NCBI GenBank assembly: GCA_004563595.2
Contig: CP042461.1
Span: forward strand, 570,001-602,000
DNA: 32,000 nt
Reading direction: 5' to 3'
From: Candidatus Saccharimonadota bacterium
Lineage (GTDB): Bacteria; Patescibacteriota; Gracilibacteria; BD1-5; UBA6164
The position numbers and the translations under genes were made by a program. Below, one piece after another: positions 10,798 to 30,856 of this stretch; position 1 is the first letter of the stretch, and every line of letters begins with the position of its first letter. The notes under the pieces were generated by a model, which was not told the origin of the DNA, did no database searches, and saw only the letters and a list, made by a program, of their open reading frames with translations.

Positions 10798-12051
10798 ATG
10801 AATTCAAACATACGAAAAACAAAAAGAAATTTAACCATTGCTTTTTCTGTAATAATTTTCATTGTAATTTTTATATTAGGAGTTACTTTTTTTTCAGTTA
10901 AATATTTTAAAGAAGTGAGAGCAGAGAAAAATGAATTTTCTCATTTGATAAGGCAAGTTGAAAATTGAAAACTTAGCATTCATGATATTATGAATTTTGG
11001 TTCAGAGTATAGAGATGATTTTTTAGCCTGAAAAAGAAATAAAGAACATTTTAAAGTATCTTCTCCTGGTTTGAATTTTAGATCCAGAGGGTTTATGAAC
11101 TATCTTTATATAGATAGTAGTTCAATCATTATTTCAAGTAATATTAGAGATGAAATTGATTCCGATTTTATAATTTCTATTTATAAACATGATTCATATT
11201 TTAAATTACAACAAGAATCATGATTTTTAGTGAAAAAATTTATTGTAAATAAGAATGATGGAATATTTGTGATCGTAAAAAAAATAACCTATAGTATATC
11301 AGATTATATGAATGATGTTCTAGGATTCTTATTTATCAATCTATTATTTTCATTAATTCTTTATTTTATTGGCTTAAAATTTGTTAATAAATCATTTATC
11401 CCTGTAGAGGATAACTTAAAAGATATGAAAGATTTTATTCATAATGCGGGGCATGAGTTAAAAACACCTATATCGGTAATAGACTCAAATATTCAGTTAA
11501 TGGATGATATGAAAGTATATGATGCAAATATGACAAAAGAATTAAAACAAGAAGTGTTGAGGTTAAATTCTATAATAGAATGACTGATTAAACTGAGTAA
11601 CATTGATGTATTCAAAGATGTGGTAACGAATAATTTAAAGGATAGTATTGAATGAACTATAAAAGATTTTAAATTTAAAATATCAGATAAAAATTTAAAA
11701 ATTAAGATTGATATACCTGAATCTATAAACATTAATGCAAATAAGGATTACTTTTATATATTCATTTCAAATATTATTTGAAATGCTATTAAGTATAATA
11801 ATAGTAACGGACACATTGAGGTATCATATAAAAATTGAGAATTAATTATAGCAGACTCATGAATTTGAATAGATGAAAAAGATGTAGGAAAAATATTTGA
11901 TAGGTTTTTTAAATCTGATAGATCTAGAGAATCAGATGGATTTGGCATTTGATTATCTCTTGTAAAAAAAATATCAGAGATTTATAAATGGAATATAAAA
12001 GTTGATAGTAAAAAAAATAAATGAACTCGTTTTATAATTAAGTTGTGATAA
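10798..12051 (+). CDS. sensor histidine kinase, 417 aa
   Basis: The ATG lies 3 nt after the regulator stop. Two TM segments flank an extracytoplasmic domain of about 130 aa. H box HNAGHELKTPISVI, N box NIIGNAIKYN, G1 box DSGIGID, G2 box GFGIGLS (the G1 and G2 glycines are TGA). The track ORF 11230-11583 is in frame. Confidence 0.92.
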
Positions 12052-12170
12052 GAAATCTCTATCTTGCATATAAAATAGATTTTTTAAGCTTTATTTAAGG
12101 TTGGTAGATAAATTTACAATCATAGAGAAATGGATATATTAAATCTTATGTATAAATTAATATAAAATGG

Positions 12171-14132
12171 ATGAAAAATAAATCACTTATAGCTATTATA
12201 ATTATATTATTGTTACTCATATGAGCTTGAGCATTTTATTTGTACATGAGTATGACGCATAATATGTCTATGTGAGATATGGAGGATTGAAATAATGATG
12301 CAATGAGAGCGCATTGTCAGATGATGCCTGAGATGAAAGGCTGTGAAAAATATATAAATGAGGTAAAAAATGATCATCATATGTGAAGTATGGTATGAAT
12401 GCCGAGTTGAGAAACATTTGATGAAAGTATTGATGGACTTCCAGATGCAAAAAAATCAGAAATAATTATCTTAAAAGATGGAGATACATATGAGATGATT
12501 GCCAGTGCAGTAAAACAAGAGCTATGAAATAGAACAGTAAAAAGGCTTGCATATAATGGGATGATTCCATGACCACTCTTACAAGTGGAAAAATGAGAGA
12601 AAATTAATTTAAAACTCACTAATAATTTAGATGTTGATACAACACTTCACTCTCATTGATTAAGACTTGATGATTCAAAATTTGATGGATTACCAACTAC
12701 TATGCAATGAGAACAAGTTCCAATGAAAAAAGGAGATAGCTTTACTTATGAGCTTAATTTCCCAGATACATGAGTATTTTGGTATCATCCCCATATTAGG
12801 GAAGACTATACACAAGAGATGTGACTGTATGGGAATTTTTCTGTGGTCGAAGAATGATATTGGTCTACAGTTGATAGAGAAGAGTTTCTTATTCTAGATG
12901 ATTTTTGAGAAGATGACGTCTTTTATAAAGAAAAAGTGAACAAAACTCTCATGTGAAGATTTGGAAACATTATGTTAATTAATAATGATGAAGATTATAA
13001 ACTGAAGTTAAATACAGGAGAAATATCAAGACTGTATCTAACAAACGTAGCAAATACAAGAACTTTTGATTTTACTATTTCAAAAAATTGAGAAAATATT
13101 GATTTTAAACTTGTTTGAGGTGATATAGGTAGAATAGAAAAAGAAGTTATTATAGATCATCAAATAATATCTCCAGCTGAAAGGTATATTATAGAAACTG
13201 TTTTTAATGAACCTGGTACTTATGAAATAAAATCAAAAGATAGAAAACTAGGGGAGATTATAGTTACATGAGATGAAAGTAATACAAGTAATCTTTCTGA
13301 TCTTAGGAATAATTGATCTGACTATAGAGATATTAGAGATAGGTTTCAAGCATACTTAGATAAAAAAGCTGATAAAAAATTAGAGCTCACTATCTCAATG
13401 AACTGAATGAAAGATTGAATGATGATGTGAGATGAGGAGTGACATAATGATGATGGTATAGAATGGGAAGATGAAATGAGAGAGATGAATCTCATGAGTA
13501 GTGATCAAACTATGGAGTGGAAACTCTTAGACCCTGAAACCTGAAATGAAAATATGGATATACAATGGAATTTTAAAAAATGAGATTTTGTAAAAGTAGA
13601 AATATTTAATGATCCAAAATCTATGCATCCTATGCAACATCCAATTCATTTTCATGGGCAAAGATTTATTGTTTTAACGAGAGATGGGGTTGTGAATGAT
13701 AATCTTCAATGGAAAGATACTACACTGATTAGAAATTGAGAAAAAATAGAAATACTCATAGAAATGACAAATGTATGACTTTGGATGAGCCACTGTCATA
13801 TCGCAGAGCATTTACAATCTGGAATGATGATGAACTTTACAGTGGAGGAAAATCTATCAAATTCAGGTGATAATGATGGAACAATAATCACACTCAATGC
13901 AAAAAAATGGGAATTTGATACAAAAGAAATCAGAGTAAAAAAATGAGAAAAATTAACAATAAAAGTTAATAATACTGATATATTACATGGAATTGCTATA
14001 CCTGATATGATGATTATGTGAGACGATGAAATCGAAGTGGACACCTCCCAAACTTGAGAATTTTTATATAGATGTTATAATTACTGTGGAGAGGGGCATC
14101 AAGATATGATTGGAAAACTTATAATCGAATAA
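12171..14132 (+). CDS. multicopper oxidase (CueO/CopA-like) with Met/His-rich segments and a C-terminal CuA-like cupredoxin domain, 653 aa
   Basis: Copper ligand motifs HSHGL, WYHPH, HPIHFHG and HCHIAEHLQSGMMM. Met-rich N-terminus (MSMTHNMSMGDMEDG...MMPEM...HHMGSMVGM) and a Met-rich insert (MNGMKDGMMMGDEEGHND). The C-terminal ~95 aa carry LHGIAIP...CYNYCGEGHQDM. TAA at 14130-14132. Confidence 0.9.
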
Positions 14133-14146
14133 CTTAATATAACAAA

Positions 14147-14614
14147 ATGAAGAATAACAAACATATAAAGTTTATAAAAGAGTATGGGATATTATTACTG
14201 ATAATTATATGACCAATAGTGTGATTTATGACTTTACTGGCATTGAAAGGTGAAAGTTCAATCACTGCGAAACAAGTTCATTGGCATATGCCTATTGCTT
14301 ATGACTTGTGTGGTAATACTACTCAGTTAAAAGACAGTTGAAATCATGGAATTCTCCATTGACATGATGATGCAAAAATTCATATAGAATGAGTTATTGA
14401 TACTGCAAATAGGCAAGAGACACTTGGGTGATTCTTTGATTCTGCAAATATTGTATTTTCGGAGCTGCAAATTGCTTGATTTACTAATGGTGATGTATGT
14501 GAGTGATCTAATACTCCATGAAAACTAAGAGTAGAGATAAATGGAGAAGAAAATTTTGATTTTAGAAATTTTGTTCTAAGTGATACAGATGAGATCAAAA
14601 TAATTTTTAAATAG
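14147..14614 (+). CDS. membrane-anchored His-rich hypothetical protein, 155 aa
   Basis: ATG at 14147, TAG at 14612-14614, about 11 TGA. One N-terminal TM, then HWHMP...GNHGILHGHDDAKIHIEG and two Cys. Probably co-transcribed with the oxidase (14-nt gap). Confidence 0.7.
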
Positions 14615-14660
14615 TTAAAAGAATTAAAAAAATGTAAGAGATAGTTTTAGTTTCAAACTA

Positions 14661-14699
14661 AAAAGGAACTGTAAGTGTATACTTACAGTTCCTTTTTTT
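14661..14699. terminator. bidirectional rho-independent terminator
   Basis: 16-bp stem aaaaggaactgtaagt / acttacagttcctttt between convergent genes. Confidence 0.8.
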
Positions 14700-14708
14700 C
14701 CAACTTTT

Positions 14709-15002
14709 TTATCTTATAGAATGCTCTAACTTTGCTTTTGTACTAAACGTCGTTATGTATTGTATAGCTACTTGAACAGATGAATCAGGTATTTTTTTAT
14801 CTGATTTAAATAAAGTTAATACCATATCTGCTTTATTTTCTAATAATGTACAAATTTCGTGAAGAATATTATCTGTCAATTCACTGCTACGATAGAACTT
14901 GCCTTGGCGCAATAATCGGTTAGTTGTATGTATAATTAACAGGCTAATAAGGCGATTACCTTGAGTACCTGTTGAATCAATCAAGTTATGAACTGTTGGC
15001 AT
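14709..15002 (-). CDS. hypothetical protein, 97 aa (SD-led, TGA-free class)
   Basis: Intact standard ORF with a TAA stop. SD GGAGGA lies 3-4 nt before the ATG. An in-frame TAA lies upstream. All 3 Gly are GGN. Confidence 0.7.
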   Translation of the reverse strand: MPTVHNLIDSTGTQGNRLISLLIIHTTNRLLRQGKFYRSSELTDNILHEICTLLENKADMVLTLFKSDKKIPDSSVQVAIQYITTFSTKAKLEHSIR

Positions 15003-15080
15003 CTTTCCTCCAATGGAACTTTTAATGAACGTTTTTTAGAAACAAAAGTAGTATAATTAATAATAATATATGTCAATTTT

Positions 15081-15114
15081 TTATAAAAAGAAAAGCTCAG
15101 ATGATGTGAGCTTT
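15081..15114 (-). terminator. rho-independent terminator of 15139-15318
   Basis: aaagctca (15092-15099) / tgagcttt (15107-15114). T-rich on the minus strand after the stem. Confidence 0.55.
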
Positions 15115-15138
15115 AAATACTATTAATAGGGAAACATA

Positions 15139-15318
15139 TTAGTTTTTGTGATTCCTTACTATTAATGGTCCGAAAAAATTAACAAATATAACTGTGAATA
15201 CTCCTATAGAATGAATAAATGTAAGTGGAAAGCATACATATATGCCAACTGATACAAAAAGCGAAACTATAGATCTCAGTAAAAGCCTATCTATTGCAAA
15301 ACATATTATTTTTTGCAT
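15139..15318 (-). CDS. small two-TM hydrophobic protein, 59 aa
   Basis: MQKIICFAIDRLLLRSIVSLFVSVGIYVCFPLTFIHSIGVFTVIFVNFFGPLIVRNHKN. SD GGAG lies 8 nt before the ATG. TAA stop, no TGA. It falls below the 60-aa cut-off of the track. Confidence 0.45.
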   Translation of the reverse strand: MQKIICFAIDRLLLRSIVSLFVSVGIYVCFPLTFIHSIGVFTVIFVNFFGPLIVRNHKN

Positions 15319-15382
15319 AACAGAACTCCATTGTTGTTTTCGTATCTATAATACTACTATATTTTGATAATATATCAAGTAA

Positions 15383-15544
15383 TTATTTTAATTTATCATC
15401 TTTCATGAGTTTATTGATTTGCGATTGAATACCTTGAAGTTTTCTTTCTACTTGGGACTTTTGTTTTTTATTTGTAATTTTTTCTAATTTTTTATTTAAT
15501 AATTCATAAGATTTTTCTAATTGGTTTAAGTGGAGGTCTGACAT
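15383..15544 (-). CDS. small coiled-coil protein, 53 aa
   Basis: MSDLHLNQLEKSYELLNKKLEKITNKKQKSQVERKLQGIQSQINKLMKDDKLK. TAA stop, no TGA, no SD. Weak support. Confidence 0.3.
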   Translation of the reverse strand: MSDLHLNQLEKSYELLNKKLEKITNKKQKSQVERKLQGIQSQINKLMKDDKLK

Positions 15545-15609
15545 ATGTTTTTTTAATATAATAAATACTTTTATTATACTGATGAGACATTAACAGGACA
15601 TTAATATTT

Positions 15610-15651
15610 GAGAAAAAAGTACATTTTATTAAAATAATGTACTTTTTTCTC
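15610..15651 (-). terminator. rho-independent terminator of the NSS transporter gene (palindromic, could act both ways)
   Basis: 16-bp stem gagaaaaaagtacatt / aatgtacttttttctc. The transporter stop codon (15653-15655) abuts the stem. Confidence 0.75.
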
Positions 15652-15652
15652 A

Positions 15653-17155
15653 TTATTTTTTCTTTTTTTTCATAATTTCAGCTATATTGAATATAACTCA
15701 AAGTCAGAAGATGCTCACTAATGTATATATTCAATAAAATATAAGATAAGATTTATCATATCATTCATAGTTGAGGATTCAAGATTGAATATTGAGTACA
15801 AGTAACCAAGTGAGAATAAATATCGTTGCTACCCAACTAAACATGAGGTACCATTTATTGATAATAAACCTTAAACATGATTTATTATGTTTATCCACAT
15901 ACTTTCAGAGTGACTTCCATGCTATAAGAAGTATAATTGCCTCTGATAATCAGATAATTATCATTCAGAAGGCTGTGATATAATGATCTACAATATCTAA
16001 TACATATAATCAATTCCCAAATGTATAAAGGATACTAGATAGTCATATTATAGTAACTATTCATAATGTTATTACTTCTATTCTAAGCTTTTTAAACTTA
16101 TTTCTTAGGACCATTGCAACTGCTTCAACAAGTGACATAGCACTATCAATAGCGAGCATAAATATAGTAGAGAAAAATATGATAGCAAAGAGTGAATTAA
16201 ATGCGGGAAGCTTGTTTATAATTTCAGGAAATATTCCAAATATAAGTCATGGTCAACCTTTTACTACCTCACTTACATCTACTCAGTTTTTCATTGCAAG
16301 ATATCAAAGAGTTCCAAAGACTGCAATTGCAGATAAAAATGATATGAGGGTATTTCAAAGTACTACTATAAAGACTGATTTTACTATTTCTGATTTTTCT
16401 TTTTTGAGTGCTCAGTAAGCGTACATGATTCACATGGCAACTGAAAGAGTAAAGAATATTTGCCCTCATGCAGCAGACCAAGTACTGAGAGAGAAGAGTT
16501 TGTCATAATCTATGGTTGTTAGATATGAGAGGCCTTCTCCTGCCCCATCTAATGTAGCTCACCTTATTGCAAGTATTGTAAGACTGAGAAAGGGAAGTGT
16601 TGCTGTTACCATAATTACTTTTCATACTGATTTTACACTTTTAAATGTAAAGAAATAGAGAAGTATTATAGTTGAGAGTGTTCATATAAACACCGGTTTA
16701 GATATATTTCAGAGTGTTTGGACTCAATCTGTGAGTCAAAGAACATTATTATAAAAAAATCATGTTGTATCAGTTCACCAGGCAAAGCTTCATGTGAATA
16801 ACGATTGAATAGAGTAATACAGGTAGTCCATTCACCAACCAATAACAACTACATAGTAAGAAAGGATTCAAAAAGAAACAAATATGGCACTCCACCCAAC
16901 CCAGCTAAATGCTTTATTAATGGATCATAGTGCTCAAACCGCTCATTTTCTTGTTTGTTGTCAGAGAGCAATTTCTCATATCAAGAGTCAGAATCATACT
17001 ATAAAAAGCATTACAAGGTATGCGACTATGAACGCAGCTCCACCATTATCATATACTAAATATGGAAATTTCCACAAATTTCATAATCATGCAGCTGATC
17101 CAATAGCAGCTAGAATAAACACCCACTTGTTTTTCCATAATGCTTGCTTTTCCAT
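15653..17155 (-). CDS. neurotransmitter:sodium symporter (NSS/SNF, LeuT-like) family transporter, 500 aa
   Basis: The minus-strand ATG (cat at 17153-17155) gives MEKQALWKNKWVFILAAIGSAAGLGNLWKFPYLVYDNGGAAF, the NSS signature. TAA is tta at 15653-15655. TGA is so frequent that no standard ORF of 60 aa or more exists in this frame. The track shows only antisense and off-frame ORFs here. Confidence 0.9.
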
Positions 17156-17365
17156 ATTCCTTAAATTATGTAAATAAACCTTTATTTTATAATGATTTTT
17201 TGATAGATTACTAGTTTTTTCATGTACATACTTTCTAAAAAAAAATAGATTTAAGCTTATTTTAAGATTAGTTTGTATTTTTATAATAGTATATATAGTA
17301 AGTATACATGAGTGAATATAATAGATAAATGAATAAAATTTTATAATTTAATATGTTTGGTAGAG

Positions 17366-18241
17366 ATGAAAGATAATAATACAATCATGCAAGTTGGGAT
17401 ATCATTATTACTTGCTGTTATAACTATAATAGCTACATATATAATTGTTGATATAAAGACAAAAAATATTTCTGAGGAAGTTGTAAATCAAATGTTATTA
17501 GTAGAATATAAAAAAGTAGGTGGAAAAGTAAACTATGATAAAATCATAGAAATACAACAGAAGCAAGTTGAGGAATGATTAAAAGGGTATGATAATGGAT
17601 GAGCAGCTTGAACAGTAGATACAAATCAAGCAAATAACGTAGTTCCTTCTCCTTCTTGATCAACTCTTTCTATAGAGCAAGCAACAAAAATCACATCTGA
17701 GGGAACATATATATTATGAAATAAAGATGCTGAGATTAGTTTCATTGAATATTCAGATTTAGAATGTCCTTTTTGTAAAAAATTACATGAATCTGGTGTT
17801 ATTGAAGAATTACTTGAGAATTATGACGGAAAGGTTAATTTTATATTTAAGCAATTTCCACTTGATTTTCATGTCCAAGCGCAAATGGAAGCTGAAGCAA
17901 CACTCTGTGTCTGAGAAATAGCGTGAGAAGATAAATATTATGAATTTATAACAAAGGTATTTGATGGCTCTCAAGCAAACGGAAGAAGTTATACAAAAAA
18001 TACTATTTCTGAATTATGAGCAACAATTGGAATAGATAAAAGTAAACTTCTTAGTTGTATCGAGAGTGGAAAAATGAAGCAAAGAGCTCAAGATGAAATG
18101 GCAGAATGAGGAAGCGTTTTTGGTATTACATGAACACCATGAAATGTGTTAATAAATAATAAAACAGGGAAGTGGGATAAACTCCCATGAGCATATCCAT
18201 ATGCTAGTTTTAAAGCAAAAATAGATTCATTATTACAATAA
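17366..18241 (+). CDS. DsbA/BdbD-like thiol:disulfide oxidoreductase, membrane-anchored, 291 aa
   Basis: N-terminal TM, then the thioredoxin-fold motif YSDLECPFCKKLH and FGITGTPGNVLIN (cis-Pro loop). TAA at 18239-18241. The track ORF 17357-17578 is the in-frame N-terminus. The start could be TTG at 17357 or ATG at 17366. Confidence 0.88.
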
Positions 18242-18314
18242 TATGTATATATATCACAATATAATAAAAGTTTTAAAATCACCTCTATGAATAATAGGGG
18301 TCTTTTTTGGTGGA

Positions 18315-18704
18315 ATGACAATACTTCTCCCAAGTTTTTATTTTATTCAAAAAGATCTTATTATATGAAATTTAGGTCATAGCTTTTATATAATGGAGAT
18401 TGTTTTAACTATTGTAATAAGTATATTATTTTGATTATTTATTTGATCTACACTGTATAAAATTAAATATTTCCAAGTAAAAAAAACATGAGCAGGATTT
18501 ATTTGATGATTTTTTGGTGTATTGGTCTCATGATGTCCAGCTTGTAGTGTCACTCTTGCATCATATATATGACTTGCTTCAATTATATCAACCTTTCCTT
18601 ATTATGGAATGGAGTTAAAGTTTTTATCTGTATTTATGTTGATATACGCAAACTATGCTACTCTAAAGACTTTGGAGTTATGTAATATACAAGTAAAAGA
18701 TTAG
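18315..18704 (+). CDS. small three-TM membrane protein with an intramembrane CPAC motif, 129 aa
   Basis: The ORF runs from ATG at 18315 (alternative ATG at 18390) to TAG at 18702-18704, with about 9 TGA. Contains GFIGGFFGVLVSGCPACSVTLASYIGL. It lies directly downstream of the DsbA-like gene. Confidence 0.6.
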
Positions 18705-19168
18705 AAGTAAGATTCAAAATTTAGACAAAATAAAAGGGACTTGAAAGTCCCATTTTTTATGAAGGAAGAATAATATCAAGTAATCTTACCTGCAAGGCAA
18801 GATTCTATAGCTTTACTGAGGTCTCTTTTTCTTTCCTCTATATCAGTTGAGGAAAAGTTACCTGAAAAGACTTCATTCATATATTCAACTTCAAATCTAC
18901 AATTATCAAAGTATACAGCACTTAAGTAGTGTCCTTGATAATGAATAGTACATGTCGCAAAAAGTTTAAAATCTCTATCAGCTTGTGCGATACGTTTTAG
19001 ACTGTATGCGGGGTTATACTCATCTATATTTGTTTTTGTTATTTGTGAAATTTTTTCTAAAAAATACGAGTAAAAGTTTTCTTCCGAAAATTTTGCAAAT
19101 TCTATCTCTTCTAGAGAAAGACTTCCTTTATTACGAATTTTATTGAAACCTTTAATATCAGTTTTCAT
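18701..19168 (-). CDS. hypothetical protein (SD-led, TGA-free class); 130 aa if TGA at 18776-18778 stops, 154 aa if read as Gly
   Basis: ATG (cat at 19166-19168) is preceded by AGGAG, with an in-frame TAA just upstream. The standard-code ORF ends ...CLAGKIT-TGA at 18776-18778. Under code 25 it continues GYYSSFIKNGTFKSLLFCLNFESYF to TAA at 18701-18703. That extension runs through the terminator hairpin and into the convergent gene's stop codon. Confidence 0.75.
18732..18758. terminator. bidirectional rho-independent terminator
   Basis: gggact (18736-18741) / agtccc (18746-18751), with an A-tract before and a T-tract after. Lies between convergent genes. Confidence 0.7.
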
Positions 19169-19209
19169 AAATTACTCCTAAGCCGTAAATAAGACTATTT
19201 CACAAGAAT

Positions 19210-19237
19210 ATGATATATGAATTATATATGATGTCAA
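19210..19237 (-). promoter_or_regulatory. putative sigma70 promoter for 18776-19168
   Basis: On the minus strand: TTGACA (19237-19232), 16-nt spacer, TATCAT (19215-19210). Confidence 0.4.
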
Positions 19238-19306
19238 TAATTAAAATTACAAAACTTTCTGCTTGAAAAGGGGAGTTTCTTTTTGCATTATGCGCTTATA
19301 TCATTA

Positions 19307-19328
19307 TATATTGATATAAATCAATATA
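19307..19328. repeat. perfect 9-bp inverted repeat (possible operator) in a divergent intergenic region
   Basis: tatattgat-ataa-atcaatata. AT-rich, so chance occurrence is not negligible. Confidence 0.35.
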
Positions 19329-19345
19329 ATATAACATTATAGGTT

Positions 19346-20590
19346 ATGCTTTGAAGAATCTGATTATTATTCCTTTTGCTCCTATTAACATTTTATTGCA
19401 TCATTATTATTCATGTTTGATATACTCTCTGACTAGAGAAGTTTATTGCGGAAAAAATGTATACACATTTCATTTTCTATCTTTCCTATATCTGACCGAT
19501 ATTATTATTGTTATTTCTGATTTATTACTTAGCAACTTGATGTAGTGCTGATAGAATATATAAAAAATACATGTACTTTTATATCTGATATCTTATATTC
19601 TTAGGCATTTTATATTCTTTGTACCATATCCAATATAAAGAACTCAATTTTATTCCTAAAGTTATATTTGAAACGAAGCTTCAGAATGTAAATCTCGATA
19701 ACGACTTAAACTGACTAGTTCAACTCATAAAATTATTAGATATAAATAAACAACAGTATTTATTACAAGATTTATATAATGAAAGTCATGAAAGAAGTAA
19801 GTGTATCTATAGTTGGGGTGTATTATGATGTAGTGATACAGAAAGACTTAATGTAATATCACGAAGTATAAAGCTTACTCAAGTTGAGATTGAGAATATT
19901 GAAGACCTCAATTGAGATTTTTTAAAACTTTTAAGATATAAATATTTTAAACAAGATAAAAAATCAAATGTAGCCTTTAATTTTAATGGGATTGCATCTC
20001 TTGCAAAAGTAAATCTCTACTACTCTATCTATAATCTTGAAAAAGGGAATCCTAAGAAAGCTATTAGCATACTATCTCTTTATAATAAAATCTGAGAGAA
20101 ATTAATAAAAAGTGATGGAGGTATTTTGCCTATTGTATCATGAATTACTATTATTCATTTGTGACAAAATAATATAGAATTTATTTTGAATAATTATAAT
20201 TTTTCATCTGATGAACTGCAAAAACTAAAAGAGAGTTTTAGTGCAGATTACAATTCAAAAGATATTGCGAAAAACACTCAAACATATACATATCAAGCTT
20301 GATATTTCATTTTTGATAGTACGTTTAGATGATCTGATATCTGATTGAATAAAAATCATTTTTATAATCAACTACGAAATTTTTATGTATGACTTATAAA
20401 TAGATTCATTTTATTGTATGATAATTATGATAATAGTTATATGTGAAAGAGTTTCTCATATTATTTCTTTGAAAATATTGGAAATATATCATTTGAGGGC
20501 TACGAAGAAGGTATATCAAATATAAATAAAAAGAATAAAGAAATTATAAATAAAATTGATATTTTACTTTATCAATTAAAAGGGAAGTAA
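19346..20590 (+). CDS. hypothetical membrane protein with a soluble C-terminal domain, 414 aa
   Basis: The code-25 ORF opens after TAG at 19340-19342. First ATG at 19346, TAA at 20588-20590, about 20 in-frame TGA. The hydrophobic N-terminal ~100 aa suggest several TM segments. The start is uncertain (another ATG at 19457). The track ORF 19351-19545 is in a different frame. Confidence 0.65.
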
Positions 20591-20596
20591 ACAAAT

Positions 20597-20637
20597 AAAA
20601 AGAGAATATTATTAGATTAATATTCTCTTTTTATTTT
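20597..20637. terminator. bidirectional rho-independent terminator
   Basis: aaaaagagaatatt (20597-20610) / aatattctcttttt (20619-20632). The stop codon of the convergent kinase gene (20636-20638) abuts it. Confidence 0.8.
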
Positions 20638-21514
20638 AATAAAGTATTTCTACAGTAAATTTTTTATCTTCAGATTTTATATTCATAGTATATCATAATG
20701 TTTTTATAATTTCTTCTATCATTGGTAACCCGAGACCATATCATTTACTTTGTTCTGGGGATTGAGAGTAAAACTTATTTGTCATATTTTTAAGATCTTT
20801 TTGCGATATATTTCTTTCTATTTTATTTTGAAAGATGAGCTTGTCAGTGTTTATATATATGAGTAATTTTCAATCAAGTGAATATTTTAAAGCATTTTCT
20901 ATGAGATTTTTAATCACTCTCAAGAATAAGACCTCATCTGTATAAATAGAGAGGTTGAACTCTTTATTTATAATTTTTATATTTGATTTTTCTTTTACGA
21001 AGTAGGTGCTTTGTTGAATAAAGTTTTCTAAATTAATATTTTTTTTACTAGATATATGGAGTGAGTTTGAAAAATCTAAGAGTCAATCAATGATCTTTAT
21101 CATATTCTTTAATTCATCTTGGGAGCTACTAATTTTTTCTTTATTAAATCAGAATTTTAGAATATCCAAATTTGAATGAATCACCGAAATTGGAGTTTTA
21201 AGCTCATGGGCTAAATTATGATTATATTCTCTCAATTTCTTATTATGTCTTTCTATTCAAGTAAATAATTTTTTTGTAAAAAAATATGAGATAAAATATA
21301 TTCAAAATAATATCGAGATACATTTTATTCCAACGTATGTATAGAAATAAAATACATTTTTTCAAAAAATTATTTTTTCCTCAAAGAGCTTTAAATATAT
21401 ATCTTTTATACTTACTGAATCCGAAAATATAAATAAAAATATACTTCAATACACTGTAAAAAGTAAGAATACAAAGAATGTGATCTGGAGAGCTAAGCGT
21501 TGTTCATTTTTCAT
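20636..21514 (-). CDS. intramembrane-sensing-type histidine kinase with a degenerate G1 box, 292 aa
   Basis: Two TM segments with a short loop. H box HNLAHELKTPISVI, N box NLIENALKYS, G2 box GYGLGLPMIEEI. The expected DxGxG position reads FQNKIERNIS. The ATG lies 9 nt after the regulator stop. Confidence 0.85.
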
Positions 21515-21523
21515 AATATATAT

Positions 21524-22186
21524 TTAATCTATTATATAACCGATTCACTTTATAGTTTTTATAAAATCTTTTCCTAGTTTTTTTCGAATAGAATAGATAT
21601 GTGATTCAAGAGTTGTACTGTTAAAATCAAGATTTTCTTCAGCTTCTCACCATACATATTCCATTATTTTTAATTTATTTTGAGGGTATCAATAGTTTTT
21701 TGATAAGAACTCTATAATGAGGTATTGTTTATATGAGAAAATTATTTCAGTTTTTTTCAGTAATACTTTATTTGATGAGTAATTAACAGTGTATTTTCAG
21801 ATTTTTTTTTGATCATCAATTTTTTTATCAGATCGTTTTAAAATTGATTTTAACCTTGCGACAAGTTCTTCAATTTCAAAGGGTTTAGTTATATAATCAT
21901 CTACTCATAAATCAAACATTTCTAGTTTGTCAGCAAGCATAGAATCAGAAGTAAGTGCTATAATAGGAATTACTTTTCAACACATTTTGAATTGCTTGAG
22001 AAACTCTTTCCCATCCATAATAGGCATATTTATATCCAAAATAATTGCATCATAAGATGTTTTGGTTAGTTTTTGTAGTGCCTCTTTTCCATGAGATGCT
22101 CATTCTCATAAATAATGAAATTTTTTTAATAAAAAAATGAGATTCTCTCTTAATATGTTATTATCTTCTACGATTAATATTTTCAT
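21524..22186 (-). CDS. OmpR/PhoB-family response regulator, 220 aa
   Basis: MKILIVEDNN..., DAIILDINMPIMDGKEF, DLGVDDYITKPF, C-terminal winged helix ...LESHIYSIRKKLGKDFIKTIKGIGYIID. TAA is tta at 21524-21526. Confidence 0.92.
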
Positions 22187-22224
22187 AAGTATTATTAGAT
22201 GAAGTAGAGTATCTTTATTTATAT

Positions 22225-22278
22225 GAAATCTACTTGAAATTTTAAATATTTTTTTAAAGTTTACTTCAAGTAGATTTC
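22225..22278. promoter_or_regulatory. perfect 14-bp inverted repeat with a 26-nt AT-rich spacer in a divergent promoter region
   Basis: gaaatctacttgaa (22225-22238) and ttcaagtagatttc (22265-22278). It lies between the regulator start (22186) and the membrane-protein start (22346). Confidence 0.5.
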
Positions 22279-22345
22279 AATTATATTCTTATTATATCTA
22301 CAGTTTAAATAAAATAAACTATTTTTATCCCCTTATTTTTATTTT

Positions 22346-24226
22346 ATGAGAAATCTTTTTAATATTTTTAACGCTGAGGCTTTGAAAAAAAATCTGAAAA
22401 CGATTATGTATCGTTTTCCTGTTTCAATTTGTCTTATTTTACTTGTGAGTTGATTATTTTTCTTAAATTTACATGTGTATTTTAGTGAAAGTGTTAATGA
22501 TCATTTAATGAAGGTGATTATGACATCTATTATAACTTTTTTCTTGAGTGTTTGAGTTTATATTAGTACGGAGAATACTTCTTTTTCTCAATTTAAGCAA
22601 CATATATACCAGTTATTCCCGGTATGATTCTGAATACTGTTATATGTTGTATTGAGTGTGAATCTTGGTGATTTTGAAAATATATTATTTATTATTCTGA
22701 GCTTCTTTGGTATTCTCTTTTATATATTCTTTGCTCCATATTTAAATAACATTATAAAAAATAATATTAAACAATCAGTTTTTTATACCTATTTTTATAA
22801 TATAAGTGTATTATTCTTAATTTCATTTATTCTGGGAGGAGTACTATTTGGATTATGAAGTATTTGAATATGAACAGTATTTGCTCTTTTTGATTTGTGA
22901 GATATTATTTGATATAATATCTATCAAGATTGGGCTATATTAGCACTTTCTGTATTTACCCCATTATTTGCGCTTACACAAGTTCCAAATAAAAAAAGTA
23001 CACAAGAGAATCACTTTAATGAAAATGCATTTTTCTCTTTTTTAGTGAAGTATATTGCGATTCCTTTTATATATGTATATTTTATTATTCTTTATGCATA
23101 CACGATTAAGGTATTAGCAAATTTTTGAGATTGGCCAAAATGAGAGGTAAGTTGGATGGTTATAGGGTTTTCTATTTTTGGATATATTATCTATATCTTT
23201 TCTTATATTTTTGAAGATAAGAATAAATTTATAAAGGTATTTAGAAAAGCTTTTCCTTTTGTGGTAATTCCTCAGATCTTTATGTTATTCTATGCTATCT
23301 ACTTGAGAATTTCTCAGTACGATATTACGGTTAATAGGTATTTAGTAGTTGTATTTGGTATATGGTTACTTCTCATATCGTTATATTATGTCTTTTCTAG
23401 AAAAAAGTATTTATCTACTATCCCATTTTTATTAACTGTATTTACTCTTGTTATTTCAATTTGACCATGGTCTGTTCATTCTTTACCAGAGTCTAGACAG
23501 TCACAAAGGCTAGAATTATTTCTTATAGAAGCAAATATACTACAAAATGGTAAGATTATACCGTTAACAAACTATGATGATATTTCAAAAGAACTTTCAA
23601 AAGAAATTTATTGATGAATTAATTACTTATGCGATTTTGATAATTGTAATTTTATAAAAGAGCTTTTCCCTATCATATATAAAGAAATTGATGAGCAATA
23701 TAAAAAATATAATGATAGACCAGAAATCTATATAGGATCAAGGGAACCAGAACTGAATAGATGGGAAATTGTAAGTGAAATAACAAAGAAAATTAAAGTA
23801 AAAAATTATCACAGTGATAATAGGTTTCAGAGTAAAACAATTTGATTATCTATAAATTGAAGTGAAACACTTTTTCCAATAAATATTTGAGAATATTCAA
23901 AAATATTAGAATTATCAAATAACTCTTATGGAAAAAATTCACATCATTACTCAAAAATAAACTTCAAAAATAAGACTATAGAGATAATAGAGAACTGACT
24001 TACTATTGAATCATTTTCAATATCACAAATATTAGAGAACCTCTATAGTAAATATAAAAGTCTATGAACCACTGATCTATCTAAAGAGGACCTTATATTT
24101 GAAGTAATCTCAAATAATAAAACTTATAAAGTATTATTTAGTCAAATCAGTATAGATAATCCTGATTTCGATTGAACAGAGGAATTCCCATATTATTATG
24201 CCAGAGGTTATATTTTAATAAAATAA
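22346..24226 (+). CDS. large polytopic membrane protein with a soluble C-terminal domain (DUF4153-like by recollection), 626 aa
   Basis: ATG at 22346, TAA at 24224-24226. The track ORFs 22652-22858 and 23156-23464 are in-frame fragments. About 10 hydrophobic segments are followed by ISIGPWSVHSLPESRQSQRLELFL and a hydrophilic tail of about 250 aa. The family assignment is from memory and unverified. Confidence 0.8.
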
Positions 24227-24228
24227 AA

Positions 24229-24266
24229 AATAAGAAGAGTATTTTTTAATACTCTTCTTATTTTTT
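24229..24266. terminator. bidirectional rho-independent terminator
   Basis: 15-bp stem aataagaagagtatt / aatactcttcttatt. The stop codon of the convergent cyclase gene (24258-24260) lies inside the right arm. Confidence 0.8.
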
Positions 24267-25436
24267 GTTTGTAAAAATATTTTTTACTTTAATAATTGTT
24301 TTATTTTTTTGAGATGAATACTTTTTTATAGTTTCAATAAACGTTTTTTTATATTTTTTTCAAATATTAATAATCTTATTTTTATCTCTTTTTGCAATCT
24401 CTTTTCATGACTTTACTGAATAACTAAATAATGTTTTTAATTCTTTATTTGTTGCTTTTACTCACTGACTCTTTTTATAAAAATAATAACTGAGTACTTT
24501 TCAAATTGAATATGTTAATCAAAAATTTAACGGAATCATTAGATATCATCAAAAACCTACAAAACCTAGTTTTGTTATTCATACTATGGTTTGGGAAAAA
24601 ACATAACTCCCTCATACGCTAGAGAGTATGGTTGTGAATATTTCTTTAGATTCATCTTTATTCAGCTCTATTCAATAACTATGAGAAATTTCTTGTAAGA
24701 GGTATAAATGAAAAGGAAGTACACTATATGTATCTAAAAATGGTATTGGTTGTACACCTAAAATTGCAGCTACAGATGAGAATTTAAAAATAGTGTCATC
24801 GATCTTTTTTATTTTTGTCTTGAAGTCCTCACTAATAAAATAATCATTAATATTTACATGCTGTATTTTTCATTCTTTTATATTTTTTACTTCCTGAAGG
24901 TTGTGTACTATTTCATATATATCAACTTCATAGAGTACTCATTTAAATGACGTTTTTCATAAATATAGATGTACATAATCATTTTTCTTTTGTATTGCAT
25001 TCCATAACCCTCATGAAATAAAAATTTTATTTTCAGGAGTTTTATTTTGTAATCTAGATGCAACATTTACAGAATCTCAAAAATAATCTTCTCAATTTAT
25101 TGTAACTTCCCTTTCTAATGATCAGTAATCAGCACTTATTCTCAGTTCTATTTTATATAAATTTAATTCTATTTGGGAGTTATATTTTTCGAGCTTCTTT
25201 TGTATTTCAATTGATGTTTGCAGGGCATTTTCAGGTTTTTCGAAGACTATCATATATGAATCTCCAATAGATTTTACTATCTTTCAAAAGTATTTCTTTA
25301 TTATTGGGAAAATAATCTCATCTTGTTTACTCAAAAGCGTATTTATTTGAACTTGAGTCATCAGAGATGTTTTTAATGTGAAATCTTTTATATCTGTAAA
25401 TAAAACAGCTCAATTAATAGAATCTATATGTTTCAT
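24258..25436 (-). CDS. class III adenylate/guanylate cyclase catalytic domain fused to a DUF697/YcjF-like membrane-associated domain, 392 aa
   Basis: Cyclase motifs AVLFTDIKDFT, KSIGDSYMIVF, LRISADYGSL, DYFGDSVNVASRL. The C-terminal half (LGVQPIPFLDTYSVLPFHLYLLQEISHSYGIEL..., then Gly-rich hydrophobic segments) resembles DUF697, by recollection. Confidence 0.85.
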
Positions 25437-25496
25437 ATATTTGTTTTTTTATATACTTTTTTTATTTATATTCATAATAACATATTATAAAATATA

Positions 25497-25529
25497 AGTA
25501 AAAAAATAAAGATACTTCTCAGTATCTTT
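25497..25529 (-). terminator. rho-independent terminator of the disulfide reductase gene
   Basis: aaagatact (25508-25516) / agtatcttt (25521-25529). T-rich on the minus strand after the stem. Confidence 0.65.
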
Positions 25530-25533
25530 ATTT

Positions 25534-26934
25534 TTATTTTATTGCTTTTTTAGCGTTTCTCGCTGCATTTCTTACATTTTCAGGGAGAGCAGGGTGGATA
25601 TATATAATATTGAGTATATCATCTAGTTTTGCTCACATAGTTATAAATACAATAAGTATATGAATCATATTTGATGCTTCAACTCAGATTATATGTGCTC
25701 AGAGTAACTTGAGTGAAGTTTTATCAAAGAGTAGCTTTACTATTCAATGATCACTTTTTAGTGCATCTCACATGGCTGAATCTTGATACTTATTTATTCA
25801 CTTAATATAGCTTACTCATTCATTTATTAATTCATCTTCTGTTTTTCATACTCAAGCTACTTGAGGGTTTGAAAAAATAGCCCATGGCATAGGTGGATAT
25901 GAAATCTGATTTTTTGGTTTCAAGTTGTTATCTTCTATGAGTTCTTTATAAAGGTATTCAGCTTCAAAGTTTACTGAATGTCTGAATAAATAGTTTCATA
26001 TACAGTCTCATAGAGCATATATATGAGGGAGAGATGTTTGAAGTGTATCATCAACTTCAATAAATCCTCTTTTGTTCGTTGTAATATCTGTATTCTCTAG
26101 ATTGAGTGTATCACTATTGGGTTGTACACCAGTTGCTATTAAAAGAGCATCTCATTGGATTGCCTTTTCTTCATTATTTTGAGTGTAATAGAGAGTGAAT
26201 TCTTTCCTTGTCTTATCGTATTCAACTTTGTGGGTTCAAACTCACTCTAGTACATTATATTTTTCTTTAAAAACCCTTCCGAATTCCTCTTTAATTTCAG
26301 AATCTACGTTTCAAATCAGTCATCATCTTACAATAAATGTTACATTACTTCCAAGAGCTCCGTACGCATGACCAAGTTCAACTGCAATGTATCAACCTCA
26401 AATAACCAGGAGCTTTTTTGGGAGTTGTTTATTTCTGAGAGCTTCTGTTGAAGTCATATATGGAGTAGCTTCTAATCATTCAATTGGTGGAATAGTTGGT
26501 CTTGCTCCTACCGCTATGATAATTTTTTTTCCTGATATAACTTGGCTATTCACTTCGATCCTATTGTTATCTAAAAACCTTGCCTGTCCATGAAAATAAT
26601 CTAGAGTTTCATTTTTTGATGAATTATAGAGATCGTTTATTTTATTTGAAGTTGAATCAGTTGATGTATTGATTTCAGTTACTAATTTACCAAAATCAAC
26701 TGTCGGTGCATTTACAGAGATATGATATTTTTTTGCCTCACGTATTTCTTGCATAACATCAGCTGGATGTATTAGCATTTTTGAAGGAATACATCCTCTG
26801 TTGAGGCAAGTTCATCAAAGCTTATCTTTTTCAATAATGGCAACATTGAGTCATCTTTCTGCTGCGGGACGTGCAATTTTTCCAGCTCATCACGATCAAA
26901 TTACAATGAGGTCATATATTTTTTCTGTTTCCAT
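25534..26934 (-). CDS. class I FAD-dependent pyridine nucleotide-disulfide oxidoreductase (Lpd/glutathione/mycothione reductase family), 466 aa
   Basis: FAD fold DLIVIGSGGAGK, redox-active disulfide GGTCLNRGCIPSK, NAD fold LLVIGGGYIAVELG, ALGDC, and dimerisation motif IHPALPE. The track ORF 26476-26778 is an in-frame fragment. Confidence 0.92.
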
Positions 26935-27018
26935 GCATTACAAAATTAGGATATAGGATCTTTATATTGTATCCAATTATAAGCAGATGTATAATTTATT
27001 TAATACTTTTTATTTTAA

Positions 27019-27054
27019 GTAAAAAGGCTTACAGATATGTATCTGAAAGCCTTT
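27019..27054 (-). terminator. rho-independent terminator of 27118-27453
   Basis: aaaggcttacagat / atctgaaagccttt (one mismatch). The minus-strand downstream sequence is cctttttactt. Confidence 0.65.
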
Positions 27055-27117
27055 ATTAATTAACATGTAACACCAAAAATCTCCTTTTGTTGTAGTACAT
27101 TATTATTTTGTTTAACA

Positions 27118-27453
27118 TTATGCGACAAGTGCACATACTGTTGGTTTTTGTGTAGCCTTTACAATCTTTTTAACAGATCGTTCTAGCGTATCTTGTTGAT
27201 CGAAAAACAATTGAGTTTCAATTCTCAGACACTCAACACAGTATACAGATTGAGATATAATATTTTCTTCAGCATACCTTCTTGATAGCTGAAGAATTTT
27301 TCTTCTCATGGTTAATGTTATTCTCTCATGTGCATTATTTGTATCACATTTTTGAGAACACTTTTCACATGTATCAAGTTGATCAGTAAAATGATCAACA
27401 TACTTCTGGTTAAGATAATCAACAATTTTCCGCATAACGCTTCTAATTTTCAT
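27118..27453 (-). CDS. Cys-rich, glycine-free hypothetical protein, 111 aa (SD-led, TGA-free class); possible zinc-binding
   Basis: Intact standard ORF with a TAA stop. SD GGAG lies 8 nt before the ATG. CEKCSQKC and CVEC give CxxC...CxxC. Confidence 0.7.
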   Translation of the reverse strand: MKIRSVMRKIVDYLNQKYVDHFTDQLDTCEKCSQKCDTNNAHERITLTMRRKILQLSRRYAEENIISQSVYCVECLRIETQLFFDQQDTLERSVKKIVKATQKPTVCALVA

Positions 27454-27537
27454 TTGATACTCTCCACATTTGATAAATGTACTCTCTTTATACTTGTTCT
27501 GTAATAAAAATCAAACATAATATTATTTTAGAAAAGC

Positions 27538-27570
27538 AAAAGGCTATCAGATATTCTTCTGATAGCCTTT
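27538..27570 (-). terminator. rho-independent terminator of the 21-aa peptide unit
   Basis: aaaggctatcag / ctgatagccttt stem with an 8-nt loop. Confidence 0.7.
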
Positions 27571-27588
27571 ATGTGTAAATTGTTTGCA

Positions 27589-27654: not shown

Positions 27655-27732
27655 TGTATCTCTCCTTTTTTATATTTTTTGTTCTAATACATGAGTCATG
27701 TTATCAATTTTATCAAAAAAGTCAAAGTAAAT

Positions 27733-27766: not shown

Positions 27767-27777
27767 ATTTGAAGTTA

Positions 27778-28236: not shown

Positions 28237-28238
28237 GT

Positions 28239-30841: not shown

Positions 30842-30856
30842 AAATCCTTGTCTATG

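What the first reader, a model, noticed from the sequence alone, without database searches (positions are those of the whole stretch)
18701..19168. A gene that appears to end in TGA inside a UGA=Gly genome, so the code-25 reading runs through its own terminator
The 130-aa ORF (AGGAG SD, own promoter) ends ...CLAGKIT-TGA at 18776-18778, 18-25 nt before the terminator hairpin (gggact/agtccc, 18736-18751). That is the normal geometry for a real stop codon.

Read with table 25, translation continues for 24 more codons (GYYSSFIKNGTFKSLLFCLNFESYF). It passes through the hairpin and its U-tract, and the first TAA (18701-18703) overlaps the stop codon of the convergent gene. If the terminator works, the transcript ends before any in-frame TAA or TAG, giving a non-stop mRNA under the resident code.

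All other genes I delimited end in TAA or TAG. This fits a recently imported standard-code gene that is not yet adapted, or context-dependent UGA termination.
Basis: partly seen in the sequence, partly recalled or inferred. Interest (0 to 1): 0.75.

Follow-up and report, generated by a model that had tools for sequence, protein, structure and literature searches.

The report
Fossil TGA stop in recoded genome
In a bacterium that reads TGA as glycine, one small orphan gene is still built as if TGA were its stop codon, so its translation runs on into non-coding terminator sequence; it is a neat single-gene relic of a code mismatch, not a new way of ending translation.

Summary
The window comes from Candidatus Gracilibacteria bacterium 28_42_T64, which uses code 25; the published genome paper found no RF2 gene.

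The minus-strand ORF has:
- a near-consensus promoter and an AGGAG Shine-Dalgarno (SD) site;
- a 130-codon body with no TGA;
- a TGA at 18776-18778;
- a hairpin with T-tracts 24 nt further on;
- the first TAA at 18701-18703.

New results:
- The hairpin is a bidirectional terminator shared with the convergent Dsb-like operon.
- The 24-codon tail has non-coding codon usage, lower than all 346 in-gene windows.
- The protein has no homologue in billions of sequences.
- Related genomes keep the neighbouring gene pair but not this gene.
- Native genes here lack SD sites (0 of 23). Four TGA-free unknown ORFs of 97-175 aa, including this one, carry a GGAG core. Three TGA-free unknown ORFs were searched and all three are orphans.

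Best reading: this is a standard-code-style cassette, probably imported, and its TGA is a fossil stop now decoded as glycine. It would yield either a non-stop mRNA or an unselected 25-residue tail.

A plain TAA-to-TGA stop-loss mutation is the main rival. Context-dependent UGA termination is unsupported. No donor was found, and there are no expression data.

The parts
19210..19237 (-). Sigma-70-type promoter TTGACA-16 nt-TATCAT
   Evidence: 11 of 12 matches, second best in 12001-32000. Consensus match only; function not shown.
19175..19179 (-). Shine-Dalgarno AGGAG, 6 nt before the ATG
   Evidence: Unusual here: 0 of 23 TGA-containing genes in the window carry a GGAG/GAGG core.
18779..19168 (-). 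130-codon TGA-free core ORF (orphan protein; all 5 Gly codons are GGN)
   Evidence: Codon log-odds +0.21 per codon in frame, against -0.63 and -0.98 in the other two frames. No homologue other than itself.
18782..18804 (-). 10-bp hairpin inside the last codons, ending 3 nt before the TGA
   Evidence: -11 kcal/mol, z = -3.2. Role unknown; may be chance.
18776..18778 (-). TGA: a stop under the standard code, glycine under the resident code 25 (fossil stop)
   Evidence: An independent Logan assembly of run SRR3580189, evidently the same population, is identical here.
18704..18775 (-). 24-codon read-through tail (YYSSFIKNGTFKSLLFCLNFESYF) with non-coding composition
   Evidence: -0.39 per codon. 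Lower than all 346 in-gene windows and all 24 C-terminal windows. Lies within the intergenic distribution.
18736..18751 (.). Bidirectional intrinsic-terminator hairpin GGGACT-N4-AGTCCC
   Evidence: about -9 to -10 kcal/mol on either strand.
18727..18735 (-). U-tract (UUUUAUUUU) for minus-strand transcripts; predicted 3' end of the orphan gene's mRNA
   Evidence: The 3' end itself is inferred, not measured.
18752..18761 (+). T-tract (ATTTTTTATG) for plus-strand transcripts of the DsbA-like/membrane-protein operon
18701..18703 (-). First in-frame TAA under code 25; overlaps the convergent gene's TAG
18243..18704 (+). Convergent native gene: 153-aa membrane protein with a CPAC motif and 9 TGA codons. 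Its end defines the other side of the 71-nt spacer
   Evidence: Orthologues follow the DsbA-like gene in L002 and L006.

Best explanation
The ORF 19168-18779 is a real orphan gene organised as a complete standard-code cassette: sigma-70-type promoter, AGGAG ribosome-binding site, 130 TGA-free codons, TGA, then an intrinsic terminator. It sits in a Gracilibacterium that decodes TGA as glycine and has no RF2.

The TGA is a fossil stop codon. Most likely it arrived with the gene from a source in which TGA terminates, or from a 'code-11-compatible' mobile element. In this cell ribosomes insert Gly at the TGA and run on into sequence never selected as coding.

Two outcomes follow:
- On transcripts that end at the bidirectional terminator, ribosomes reach the 3' end without a stop. 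This is a non-stop complex, presumably handled by ribosome rescue.
- On transcripts that read through the terminator, ribosomes stop at TAA 18703-18701 and make a 155-aa protein with an unselected, aromatic-rich 25-residue tail.

Shown: the anatomy, the code, the coding signal of the core, the non-coding signal of the tail, orphan status, lack of synteny, and the SD/TGA-free association.
Inferred: the import, the 3' end of the transcript, and the fate of the protein.
For: Code and release factors:
- Code 25 is confirmed. prfB is absent and prfA present in this genome (PMC6851277).

Geometry:
- Read with TGA as a stop, the two convergent genes are separated by 71 nt with the hairpin nearly centred: 31 nt from one stop and 24 nt from the other, with T-tracts on both sides.
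- Other genes in the window have their hairpins roughly 1-22 nt after the stop (my reading of the downstream sequences printed).

Coding signal:
- The core scores +0.21 per codon in frame and is negative in the other frames.
- The tail scores -0.39, below all 346 in-gene 24-codon windows and all 24 native C-termini (minimum -0.10). It lies inside the intergenic range.

TGA avoidance:
- The core has 0 TGA among 5 Gly codons, while 59% of Gly codons in the window are TGA.

SD association:
- The SD core GGAG/GAGG is present in 0 of 23 TGA-containing window genes, 0 of 7 TGA-containing flank genes read, 1 of 77 ORFs in AT-rich relatives and 8 of 186 in 40% GC recoded loci.
- It is present in 4 of 6 ORFs with TGA-free bodies in the window, including this one. 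Hand-computed Fisher p is about 6e-4; the tool's looser tests gave 0.0025-0.01.

Orphan status and synteny:
- The protein matches only itself in 5.8 billion and 1.84 billion sequence libraries, and nothing in viral or metagenome contigs.
- The two other TGA-free ORFs that were searched are also orphans.
- The closest relatives keep the DsbA-like/membrane-protein pair but have no homologue of this gene; in L006, the one relative whose contig continues past the pair, different genes follow.

Precedent:
- Most predicted Gracilibacteria phages lack in-frame TGA and are code-11 compatible (PMC10746230).
- The genome paper infers gene transfer from non-CPR donors into this genome.
Against: - No donor or homologue was found, so import is circumstantial.
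- G+C content (29.5%), GC3 and synonymous codon usage outside Gly are indistinguishable from native genes: class mean 0.30 against native 0.35, p = 0.15. This means either an AT-rich donor or a native gene.
- Five Gly codons is a small sample. The native RRM gene is also TGA-free (0 of 8), so P(0 of 5) is about 0.01-0.05, not negligible.
- The hairpin is needed by the opposite operon, so its presence does not prove that it terminates this gene.
- Weaker terminator-like hairpins do occur inside coding sequence here, for example 18281-18301.
- The SD/TGA-free class rests on about 40 kb of one genome.
- There are no expression, 3'-end or peptide data.
Confidence: 0.5

Rival explanations
1. Native orphan gene with a recent stop-loss mutation. 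The original TAA mutated to TGA (one A-to-G transition at 18777), which in a code-25 cell converts stop to Gly. The ORF then extends to the next in-frame TAA. No import is needed.
For: - It explains the terminator geometry and the non-coding tail equally well.
- Native-like G+C content and synonymous codon usage.
- All 28 other genes in the window end in TAA or TAG, mostly TAA.
- With about 6.5% TAA/TAG per codon in AT-rich sequence, a 24-codon run to the next stop is unremarkable (own estimate).
Against: - It does not explain the TGA-free body (0 of 5 Gly codons; window average 59% TGA).
- It does not explain the AGGAG site in a genome whose native genes lack SD sites.
- It does not explain why this gene shares both traits with other orphan ORFs of the window.
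Confidence: 0.2
2. The annotated 155-aa protein is the real product. The TGA is an ordinary glycine codon, the tail is part of the protein, and the hairpin belongs to the convergent operon and merely overlaps this gene's 3' end.
For: - This is the GenBank annotation (QFR39137.1).
- TGA is the commonest Gly codon here.
- The genome is compact, and a strong terminator stem overlaps the stop codons of genes 22346-24226 and 24258-25436.
- A single-sequence AlphaFold model draws the tail as a beta-hairpin, but at low confidence.
Against: - The tail's codon usage is below every native coding window tested (0 of 346).
- The hairpin carries a full U-tract in this gene's direction, so many transcripts should end before the TAA.
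- The one TGA sits exactly where a stop codon would be expected.
- Model confidence is poor (mean pLDDT 56.5), so the model carries no weight. Foldseek found nothing.
Confidence: 0.15
3. Context-dependent termination. UGA here acts as a stop, or ribosome stalling plus rescue acts as one, because of its position near the mRNA 3' end or the flanking hairpins. This would resemble the position-dependent stop codons of some ciliates and trypanosomatids.
For: - The geometry is that of a stop codon.
- A stable hairpin ends 3 nt upstream of the TGA (-11 kcal/mol, z = -3.2).
- Nothing in the data directly excludes it.
Against: - No RF2 gene in this genome (PMC6851277). RF1 does not read UGA (established knowledge).
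- No other gene among 28 in the window, nor among about 260 ORFs of related recoded loci, shows the pattern.
- TGA occurs as a sense codon within 1-10 codons of several native stops, so proximity to the 3' end does not make it a stop.
- No SECIS or other Rfam element.
Confidence: 0.04
4. Not a functional protein-coding gene. It would be a chance ORF or a decaying pseudogene that happens to lie between a promoter-like and a terminator-like site.
For: - No homologue anywhere.
- No credible domain: the Pfam Multi-haem_cyto hit at 22.3 bits is implausible because the protein has no CxxCH motif.
- Low-confidence structure.
Against: - 130 codons free of all three standard stops in a 28% G+C genome is very unlikely by chance (own estimate, about 1e-5 per start).
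- Clear frame-specific codon signal.
- SD site at correct spacing, near-consensus promoter and terminator.
Confidence: 0.04

Closest known systems
[quoted passage not shown] 2023, mBio, PMC10746230)
   Same: DNA associated with code-25 hosts whose genes contain no in-frame TGA, and which sometimes use TGA at gene ends. Such genes give sensible products under either code.
   Different: - Those are phage genomes in which a TGA stop is followed closely by back-up TAA/TAG. Here the gene is chromosomal and isolated, with no phage genes nearby and no significant PHROGs hit (best E = 0.07).
- The next stop is 24 codons away, beyond a terminator.
- No sequence similarity to viral contigs.
Stop-loss C-terminal extension, and the genetic code as a barrier to horizontal transfer (established concept; own knowledge)
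   Same: A gene whose stop codon is a sense codon in the recipient is translated into its 3' UTR. This gives extended or non-stop products.
   Different: This is a natural single-gene case in a CPR bacterium. It has the extra twist that the extension passes through a working-looking terminator. The consequences are inferred, not measured.
Non-stop mRNA and trans-translation substrates (tmRNA/SmpB; established knowledge)
   Same: If the transcript ends at the U-tract there is no in-frame stop before the 3' end. This is the defining substrate for ribosome rescue.
   Different: Here the non-stop state would be constitutive and encoded in the genome, not caused by mRNA damage. Presence of tmRNA in this genome and tagging of this protein were not tested.
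Position-dependent stop-codon meaning in Condylostoma and Blastocrithidia (for example PMC12153298, listed; otherwise own knowledge)
   Same: One codon is sense inside genes and appears at the position of a stop near the mRNA 3' end.
   Different: In those eukaryotes it is genome-wide and uses eRF1 together with 3'-end context. Here it is one gene, in a bacterium without a release factor that reads UGA.
Bacterial selenocysteine UGA recoding (SECIS)
   Same: An in-frame UGA with RNA hairpins nearby.
   Different: The stronger hairpin is upstream of the UGA. The downstream one is a plain terminator 24 nt away. No Rfam SECIS match. The resident code already reads UGA as Gly.

Membership tests
Genetic code 25 genome (UGA = Gly) | Genes are open only if TGA is read as sense | tested here: met
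   ORFs of at least 150 aa cover 3% of the window under table 11 and 81% with TGA as sense.
Genetic code 25 genome (UGA = Gly) | TGA aligns with conserved glycine, not tryptophan | tested here: met
   TGA at Gly positions of Walker A GxxGxGK, LSGGQ and Rossmann GxGxxG. TGA reaches up to 7.8% of codons in a gene.
Genetic code 25 genome (UGA = Gly) | No RF2 (prfB); a tRNA-Gly with anticodon UCA is present | not testable with these tools
   The window has no tRNA gene and no release-factor gene. Absence of prfB and presence of prfA are taken from PMC6851277.
Bidirectional intrinsic (Rho-independent) terminator | G+C-rich stem-loop flanked by an A-tract upstream and a T-tract downstream, so that both strands read hairpin plus U-tract | tested here: met
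   GGGACT-N4-AGTCCC. Minus strand UUUUAUUUU, plus strand AUUUUUUAU. About -9 to -10 kcal/mol.
Bidirectional intrinsic (Rho-independent) terminator | Lies between the stop codons of two convergent genes | tested here: inconclusive
   True for the plus-strand gene (31 nt after its TAG). True for the minus-strand gene only if TGA is taken as its end. Under code 25 the hairpin lies inside the ORF.
Bidirectional intrinsic (Rho-independent) terminator | Transcript 3' ends map to the U-tract | not testable with these tools
   No transcriptome data available.
Code-11-compatible mobile or phage genes of Gracilibacteria (PMC10746230) | No in-frame TGA in the gene body | tested here: met
   0 TGA in 130 codons, 5 Gly all GGN.
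Code-11-compatible mobile or phage genes of Gracilibacteria (PMC10746230) | TGA stops backed up by a nearby TAA or TAG | tested here: not met
   The next TAA or TAG is 24 codons downstream.
Code-11-compatible mobile or phage genes of Gracilibacteria (PMC10746230) | Phage or mobile-element context or homology | tested here: not met
   No PHROGs hit better than E = 0.07, and no PADLOC, phage-genome or IMG/VR match. Neighbours are native TGA-rich genes.
Horizontally acquired gene | Closest homologues in a different lineage, or atypical composition | tested here: not met
   No homologues at all. G+C content and synonymous codon usage are native-like. Only indirect signs are positive: SD site, TGA avoidance, non-synteny.
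Non-stop mRNA (ribosome-rescue substrate) | No in-frame stop between the start codon and the mRNA 3' end under the resident code | tested here: inconclusive
   Met by sequence if the transcript ends at 18727-18735. The 3' end is predicted, not measured.
Context-dependent stop codon usage | The reassigned codon recurs as the terminal codon of many genes | tested here: not met
   0 of 28 other window genes. No comparable case in about 260 ORFs of related recoded loci; the apparent candidates are antisense to tRNA genes or come from TGA-poor genomes.
Selenocysteine insertion (SECIS) | SECIS hairpin immediately 3' of the UGA | tested here: not met
   No Rfam match except a sub-threshold L20 leader hit (E = 0.18). 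The downstream hairpin is a 6-bp terminator stem 24 nt away.

The most novel reading that the evidence does not exclude
This genome holds a distinct population of small, SD-led, TGA-free orphan cassettes that stay compatible with the standard code. They would be maintained because they shuttle with, or are expressed in, standard-coded partner bacteria. In this reading the terminal UGA of this gene is used functionally: translation through the terminator or obligatory ribosome rescue would set the protein's level or couple it to transcription termination. A weaker form of the same idea is genuine RF2-independent termination at a 3'-proximal UGA in a code-25 bacterium.
Probability: 0.06. Interest if true: 0.85.

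Novelty: new member of a known kind. Interest (0 to 1): 0.42.

Why it matters
Alternative genetic codes are often proposed to shield a lineage from foreign genes and phages. This locus is a concrete natural test case. A gene with standard-code punctuation sits in a UGA=Gly cell, and the mismatch predicts either an extended protein or a permanently non-stop mRNA.

The wider pattern seen here is that native genes lack Shine-Dalgarno sites and are rich in TGA, while the orphan ORFs have SD sites and no TGA. If that holds genome-wide, it would give a simple sequence signature for counting and dating gene influx across the code boundary in Gracilibacteria. It would also allow asking how such genes become adapted. 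For annotation, it warns that code-25 gene calls can include C-terminal tails that were never selected as protein.

Tried and rejected
Searches for relatives or a function:
The search for homologous proteins, the exhaustive HMMER search of 1.84 billion representatives, phage-genome tblastn, IMG/VR and JGI metagenome contigs returned only the protein itself.
- The single weak hit, P0003 (E = 5e-4), is a tandem-repeat protein matching 35-40 residues. I judged it spurious.
- PDB sequence search and PADLOC gave nothing. PHROGs gave only a non-significant hit (E = 0.07).
- Pfam gave a borderline Multi-haem_cyto hit. I rejected it because the protein has no CxxCH motif.
- AlphaFold without an alignment gave pLDDT 56.5, and Foldseek against PDB had no hit with E <= 0.001. 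Function remains unknown.

Other checks:
- Rfam found no SECIS or other element.
- Repeat search found no insertion footprint around the cassette.
- The five TGA-free ORFs are not paralogues of one another.
- Non-Gly synonymous codon usage does not separate the class from native genes.

Survey limits:
- A genome-wide survey could not be run. The look-up of encoding contigs refuses proteins that contain TGA-encoded Gly. Only about 8 kb of extra flank was obtained, through TGA-free proteins.
- Candidate 'terminal TGA' ORFs in the 40% GC recoded loci turned out to be antisense to tRNA genes or to come from TGA-poor genomes.

Full report
**1. What the window is**

The target ORF is an exact match to QFR39137.1, hypothetical protein A9Q91_02785 of Candidatus Gracilibacteria bacterium 28_42_T64, annotated as 155 aa. 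This is the closed 1.34-Mb genome from an oil-degrading enrichment (PMC6851277).

The window is recoded:
- ORFs of at least 150 aa cover 3% of it under table 11 and 81% with TGA as sense.
- In 30 code-25 ORFs there are 378 TGA codons against 261 GGN codons.
- TGA occupies the invariant glycines of Walker A, LSGGQ and GxGxxG motifs.

The genome paper reports prfA but no prfB.

**2. The observation**

- ATG at 19168.
- AGGAG at 19179-19175.
- TTGACA-16-TATCAT at 19237-19210 (11 of 12 matches).
- 130 codons ending CLAGKIT.
- TGA at 18778-18776.
- 24 nt further on, GGGACU-UUCA-AGUCCC at 18751-18736, then UUUUAUUUU.
- The first in-frame TAA at 18703-18701. It overlaps the TAG of the convergent gene 18243-18704.

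An independent Logan assembly of run SRR3580189, evidently the same population, is identical across the locus.

**3.

(a) The hairpin is bidirectional. The plus strand reads AAAAUAAAA-hairpin-AUUUUUUAU. The hairpin lies 31 nt after the stop of the native DsbA-like/membrane-protein operon. If TGA is taken as the end of the minus-strand gene, the 71-nt spacer has the hairpin almost exactly in the middle. Other genes here have hairpins roughly 1-22 nt after their stops (my reading of the downstream sequences printed).

(b) A codon-usage log-odds model was trained on the native genes of the window.
- The core scores +0.21 per codon in frame, against -0.63 and -0.98 out of frame. It is therefore coding.
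- The 24-codon tail scores -0.39.
- That is lower than all 346 in-gene 24-codon windows and all 24 native C-termini (minimum -0.10).
- It lies inside the intergenic distribution, mean -0.67, sd 0.53.
- The tail therefore looks like untranslated sequence that happens to be open.

(c) The protein is an orphan.
- It matches only itself in the 5.8-billion-cluster search.
- The same holds for the word-index-free HMMER scan of 1.84 billion representatives.
- Phage genomes, IMG/VR and JGI metagenome contigs gave nothing.
- The one marginal hit is a tandem-repeat protein and is spurious.

(d) Synteny. The closest Gracilibacteria have DsbA-like proteins 57-67% identical by the tblastn.
- L002 and L006 keep the DsbA-like/membrane-protein pair next to the multicopper oxidase.
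- None of the related loci encodes a relative of the target.
- In L006, the one relative whose contig continues past the pair, different genes follow.

**4. A second foreign-looking signature**

Printing the 25 nt upstream of every gene showed that native genes of this organism have no Shine-Dalgarno (SD) sequence. A GGAG/GAGG core 3-13 nt upstream occurs in:
- 0 of 23 TGA-containing genes of the window;
- 0 of 7 TGA-containing genes read in the extra flanks;
- 1 of 77 ORFs in AT-rich relatives;
- 8 of 186 ORFs in 40% GC recoded loci.

By contrast, the unknown ORFs of the window that lack TGA do have one:

| ORF | Strand | SD motif |
|---|---|---|
| 8586-9113 | - | AGGAGG |
| 14709-15002 | - | GGAGG |
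| target 18779-19168 | - | AGGAG |
| 27118-27453 | - | GGAG |
| 30713-30841 (42 aa) | + | GGAG |
| 7952-8413 | - | AGGA only |

- Four of six ORFs with TGA-free bodies carry the core, against 0 of 23 TGA-containing genes. Hand-computed Fisher p is about 6e-4; the tool's looser definitions gave 0.0025-0.01.
- By my reading of the sequences printed, most have their own TTGACA-type promoter and a terminator-like hairpin.
- They are unrelated to one another.
- All three that were searched are orphans.
- The native RRM gene is also TGA-free but has no SD site, so TGA avoidance alone is not diagnostic.

**5. Interpretation**

The simplest reading that accounts for all of this is a standard-code-style cassette whose TGA was its stop codon. 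In this host the TGA is decoded as Gly, because UGA is the major Gly codon and the genome paper found no RF2 gene.

The downstream consequence follows from the sequence. No in-frame TAA or TAG precedes the U-tract. Terminated transcripts would therefore be non-stop. Read-through transcripts would give a 155-aa product with an unselected tail.

Precedent exists:
- Most predicted Gracilibacteria phages are 'code-11 compatible', lack in-frame TGA and sometimes end genes in TGA (PMC10746230).
- The genome paper infers transfers from non-CPR donors.

**6. Caveats and rivals**

Caveats:
- No donor was found.
- G+C content and non-Gly synonymous codon usage are native-like. Import must therefore have come from an AT-rich source, or the gene is native.

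Rivals:
- A single TAA-to-TGA transition in a native orphan gene would reproduce the geometry and the non-coding tail. It fails only on the TGA-free body and the SD site. I give it 0.2.
- The annotated 155-aa protein could be genuine (0.15). The tail's codon usage and the U-tract in this gene's direction argue against it.
- Context-dependent UGA termination (0.04) has no support: no RF2 gene was found, no second example appeared among 28 window genes or about 260 ORFs of related recoded loci, and native genes carry sense TGA within 1-10 codons of their stops.
- A non-gene (0.04) is unlikely, given the frame-specific coding signal and the expression signals.

**7. Comparison with known systems and verdict**

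- The locus behaves like a stop-loss extension caused by a code mismatch.
- It resembles the code-11-compatible phage genes of Gracilibacteria. It fails two of their features: there is no nearby back-up stop and no phage context.
- It is not a SECIS-type recoding site.
- It is a new, tidy example of a known kind of event, not a new mechanism.
- Its value lies in being directly testable by 3'-end mapping, peptides and a population allele check.
- It also points to the SD-plus-TGA-free signature, which deserves a genome-wide count.
- The function of the protein remains unknown.

Noticed in passing
window 8586-9113(-), 14709-15002(-), 18779-19168(-), 27118-27453(-), 30713-30841(+); weaker case 7952-8413(-): A class of small unknown ORFs with no TGA codons, each with a GGAG-type Shine-Dalgarno site. 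Most have their own TTGACA-type promoter and a terminator-like hairpin. Native genes of this genome lack SD sites (0 of 23) and use TGA for 59% of Gly codons. The ORFs are unrelated to each other, and the three that were searched are orphans.
   Followed up: partly
window 10798-12051(+): The histidine-kinase gene ends ...KLG with TGA as its last sense codon, directly followed by TAA (TGA-TAA). This could be an older fossil TGA stop with an adjacent back-up stop, or simply a terminal glycine.
   Followed up: no
window 18782-18804(-): A 10-bp hairpin (AAUCUUGCCU-UGC-AGGUAAGAUU; -11 kcal/mol, z = -3.2) lies inside the last codons of the target gene and ends 3 nt before the TGA. Its role is unknown and it may be chance.
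   Followed up: partly
window 27778-28038(-) and 28239-28769(-): The RRM RNA-binding protein gene (0 TGA among 8 Gly) and the inorganic pyrophosphatase gene (2 of 12) are TGA-poor. They have no SD site and otherwise look native. Highly expressed native genes may avoid TGA.
   Followed up: no
window 18281-18301(+): A terminator-like hairpin plus T-run sits about 40 nt inside the 5' end of the membrane-protein gene, just after the DsbA-like gene's stop. It is a possible internal attenuator of the two-gene operon, or chance.
   Followed up: no
window 24225-24266: A 19-bp bidirectional terminator stem overlaps the stop codons of both convergent genes (22346-24226 and 24258-25436). It shows how tightly terminators are packed against gene ends in this genome.
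   Followed up: no
window 17273-18704(+); L002 2195-3529; L006 4511-5891: A DsbA-like thioredoxin-fold protein followed by a small membrane protein with a CPAC motif. The pair is conserved in L002 and L006 next to a multicopper oxidase. In L006 it is followed by a small cysteine-rich membrane protein, possibly VKOR-like (my guess, not tested). It is probably a disulfide-bond formation module.
   Followed up: partly
L082 1603-4997 (just beyond the window's high end): Three tandem RelA_SpoT-domain genes (374, 354 and 353 aa) lie side by side, all TGA-rich and without SD sites.
   Followed up: no
window 9331-9798(-): A 155-codon ORF overlaps the antisense strand of gene 9476-10018. It has low-complexity Ser/Phe-rich content and is almost certainly spurious.
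   Followed up: no
L013 393-677, L023 114-515, L035 1654-1989: In 40% GC recoded loci, code-25 ORF calling produces ORFs that run antisense through tRNA genes (tRNA-Met in all three; also tRNA-Ser in L035). This is an annotation artefact to watch for when TGA is treated as sense.
   Followed up: yes
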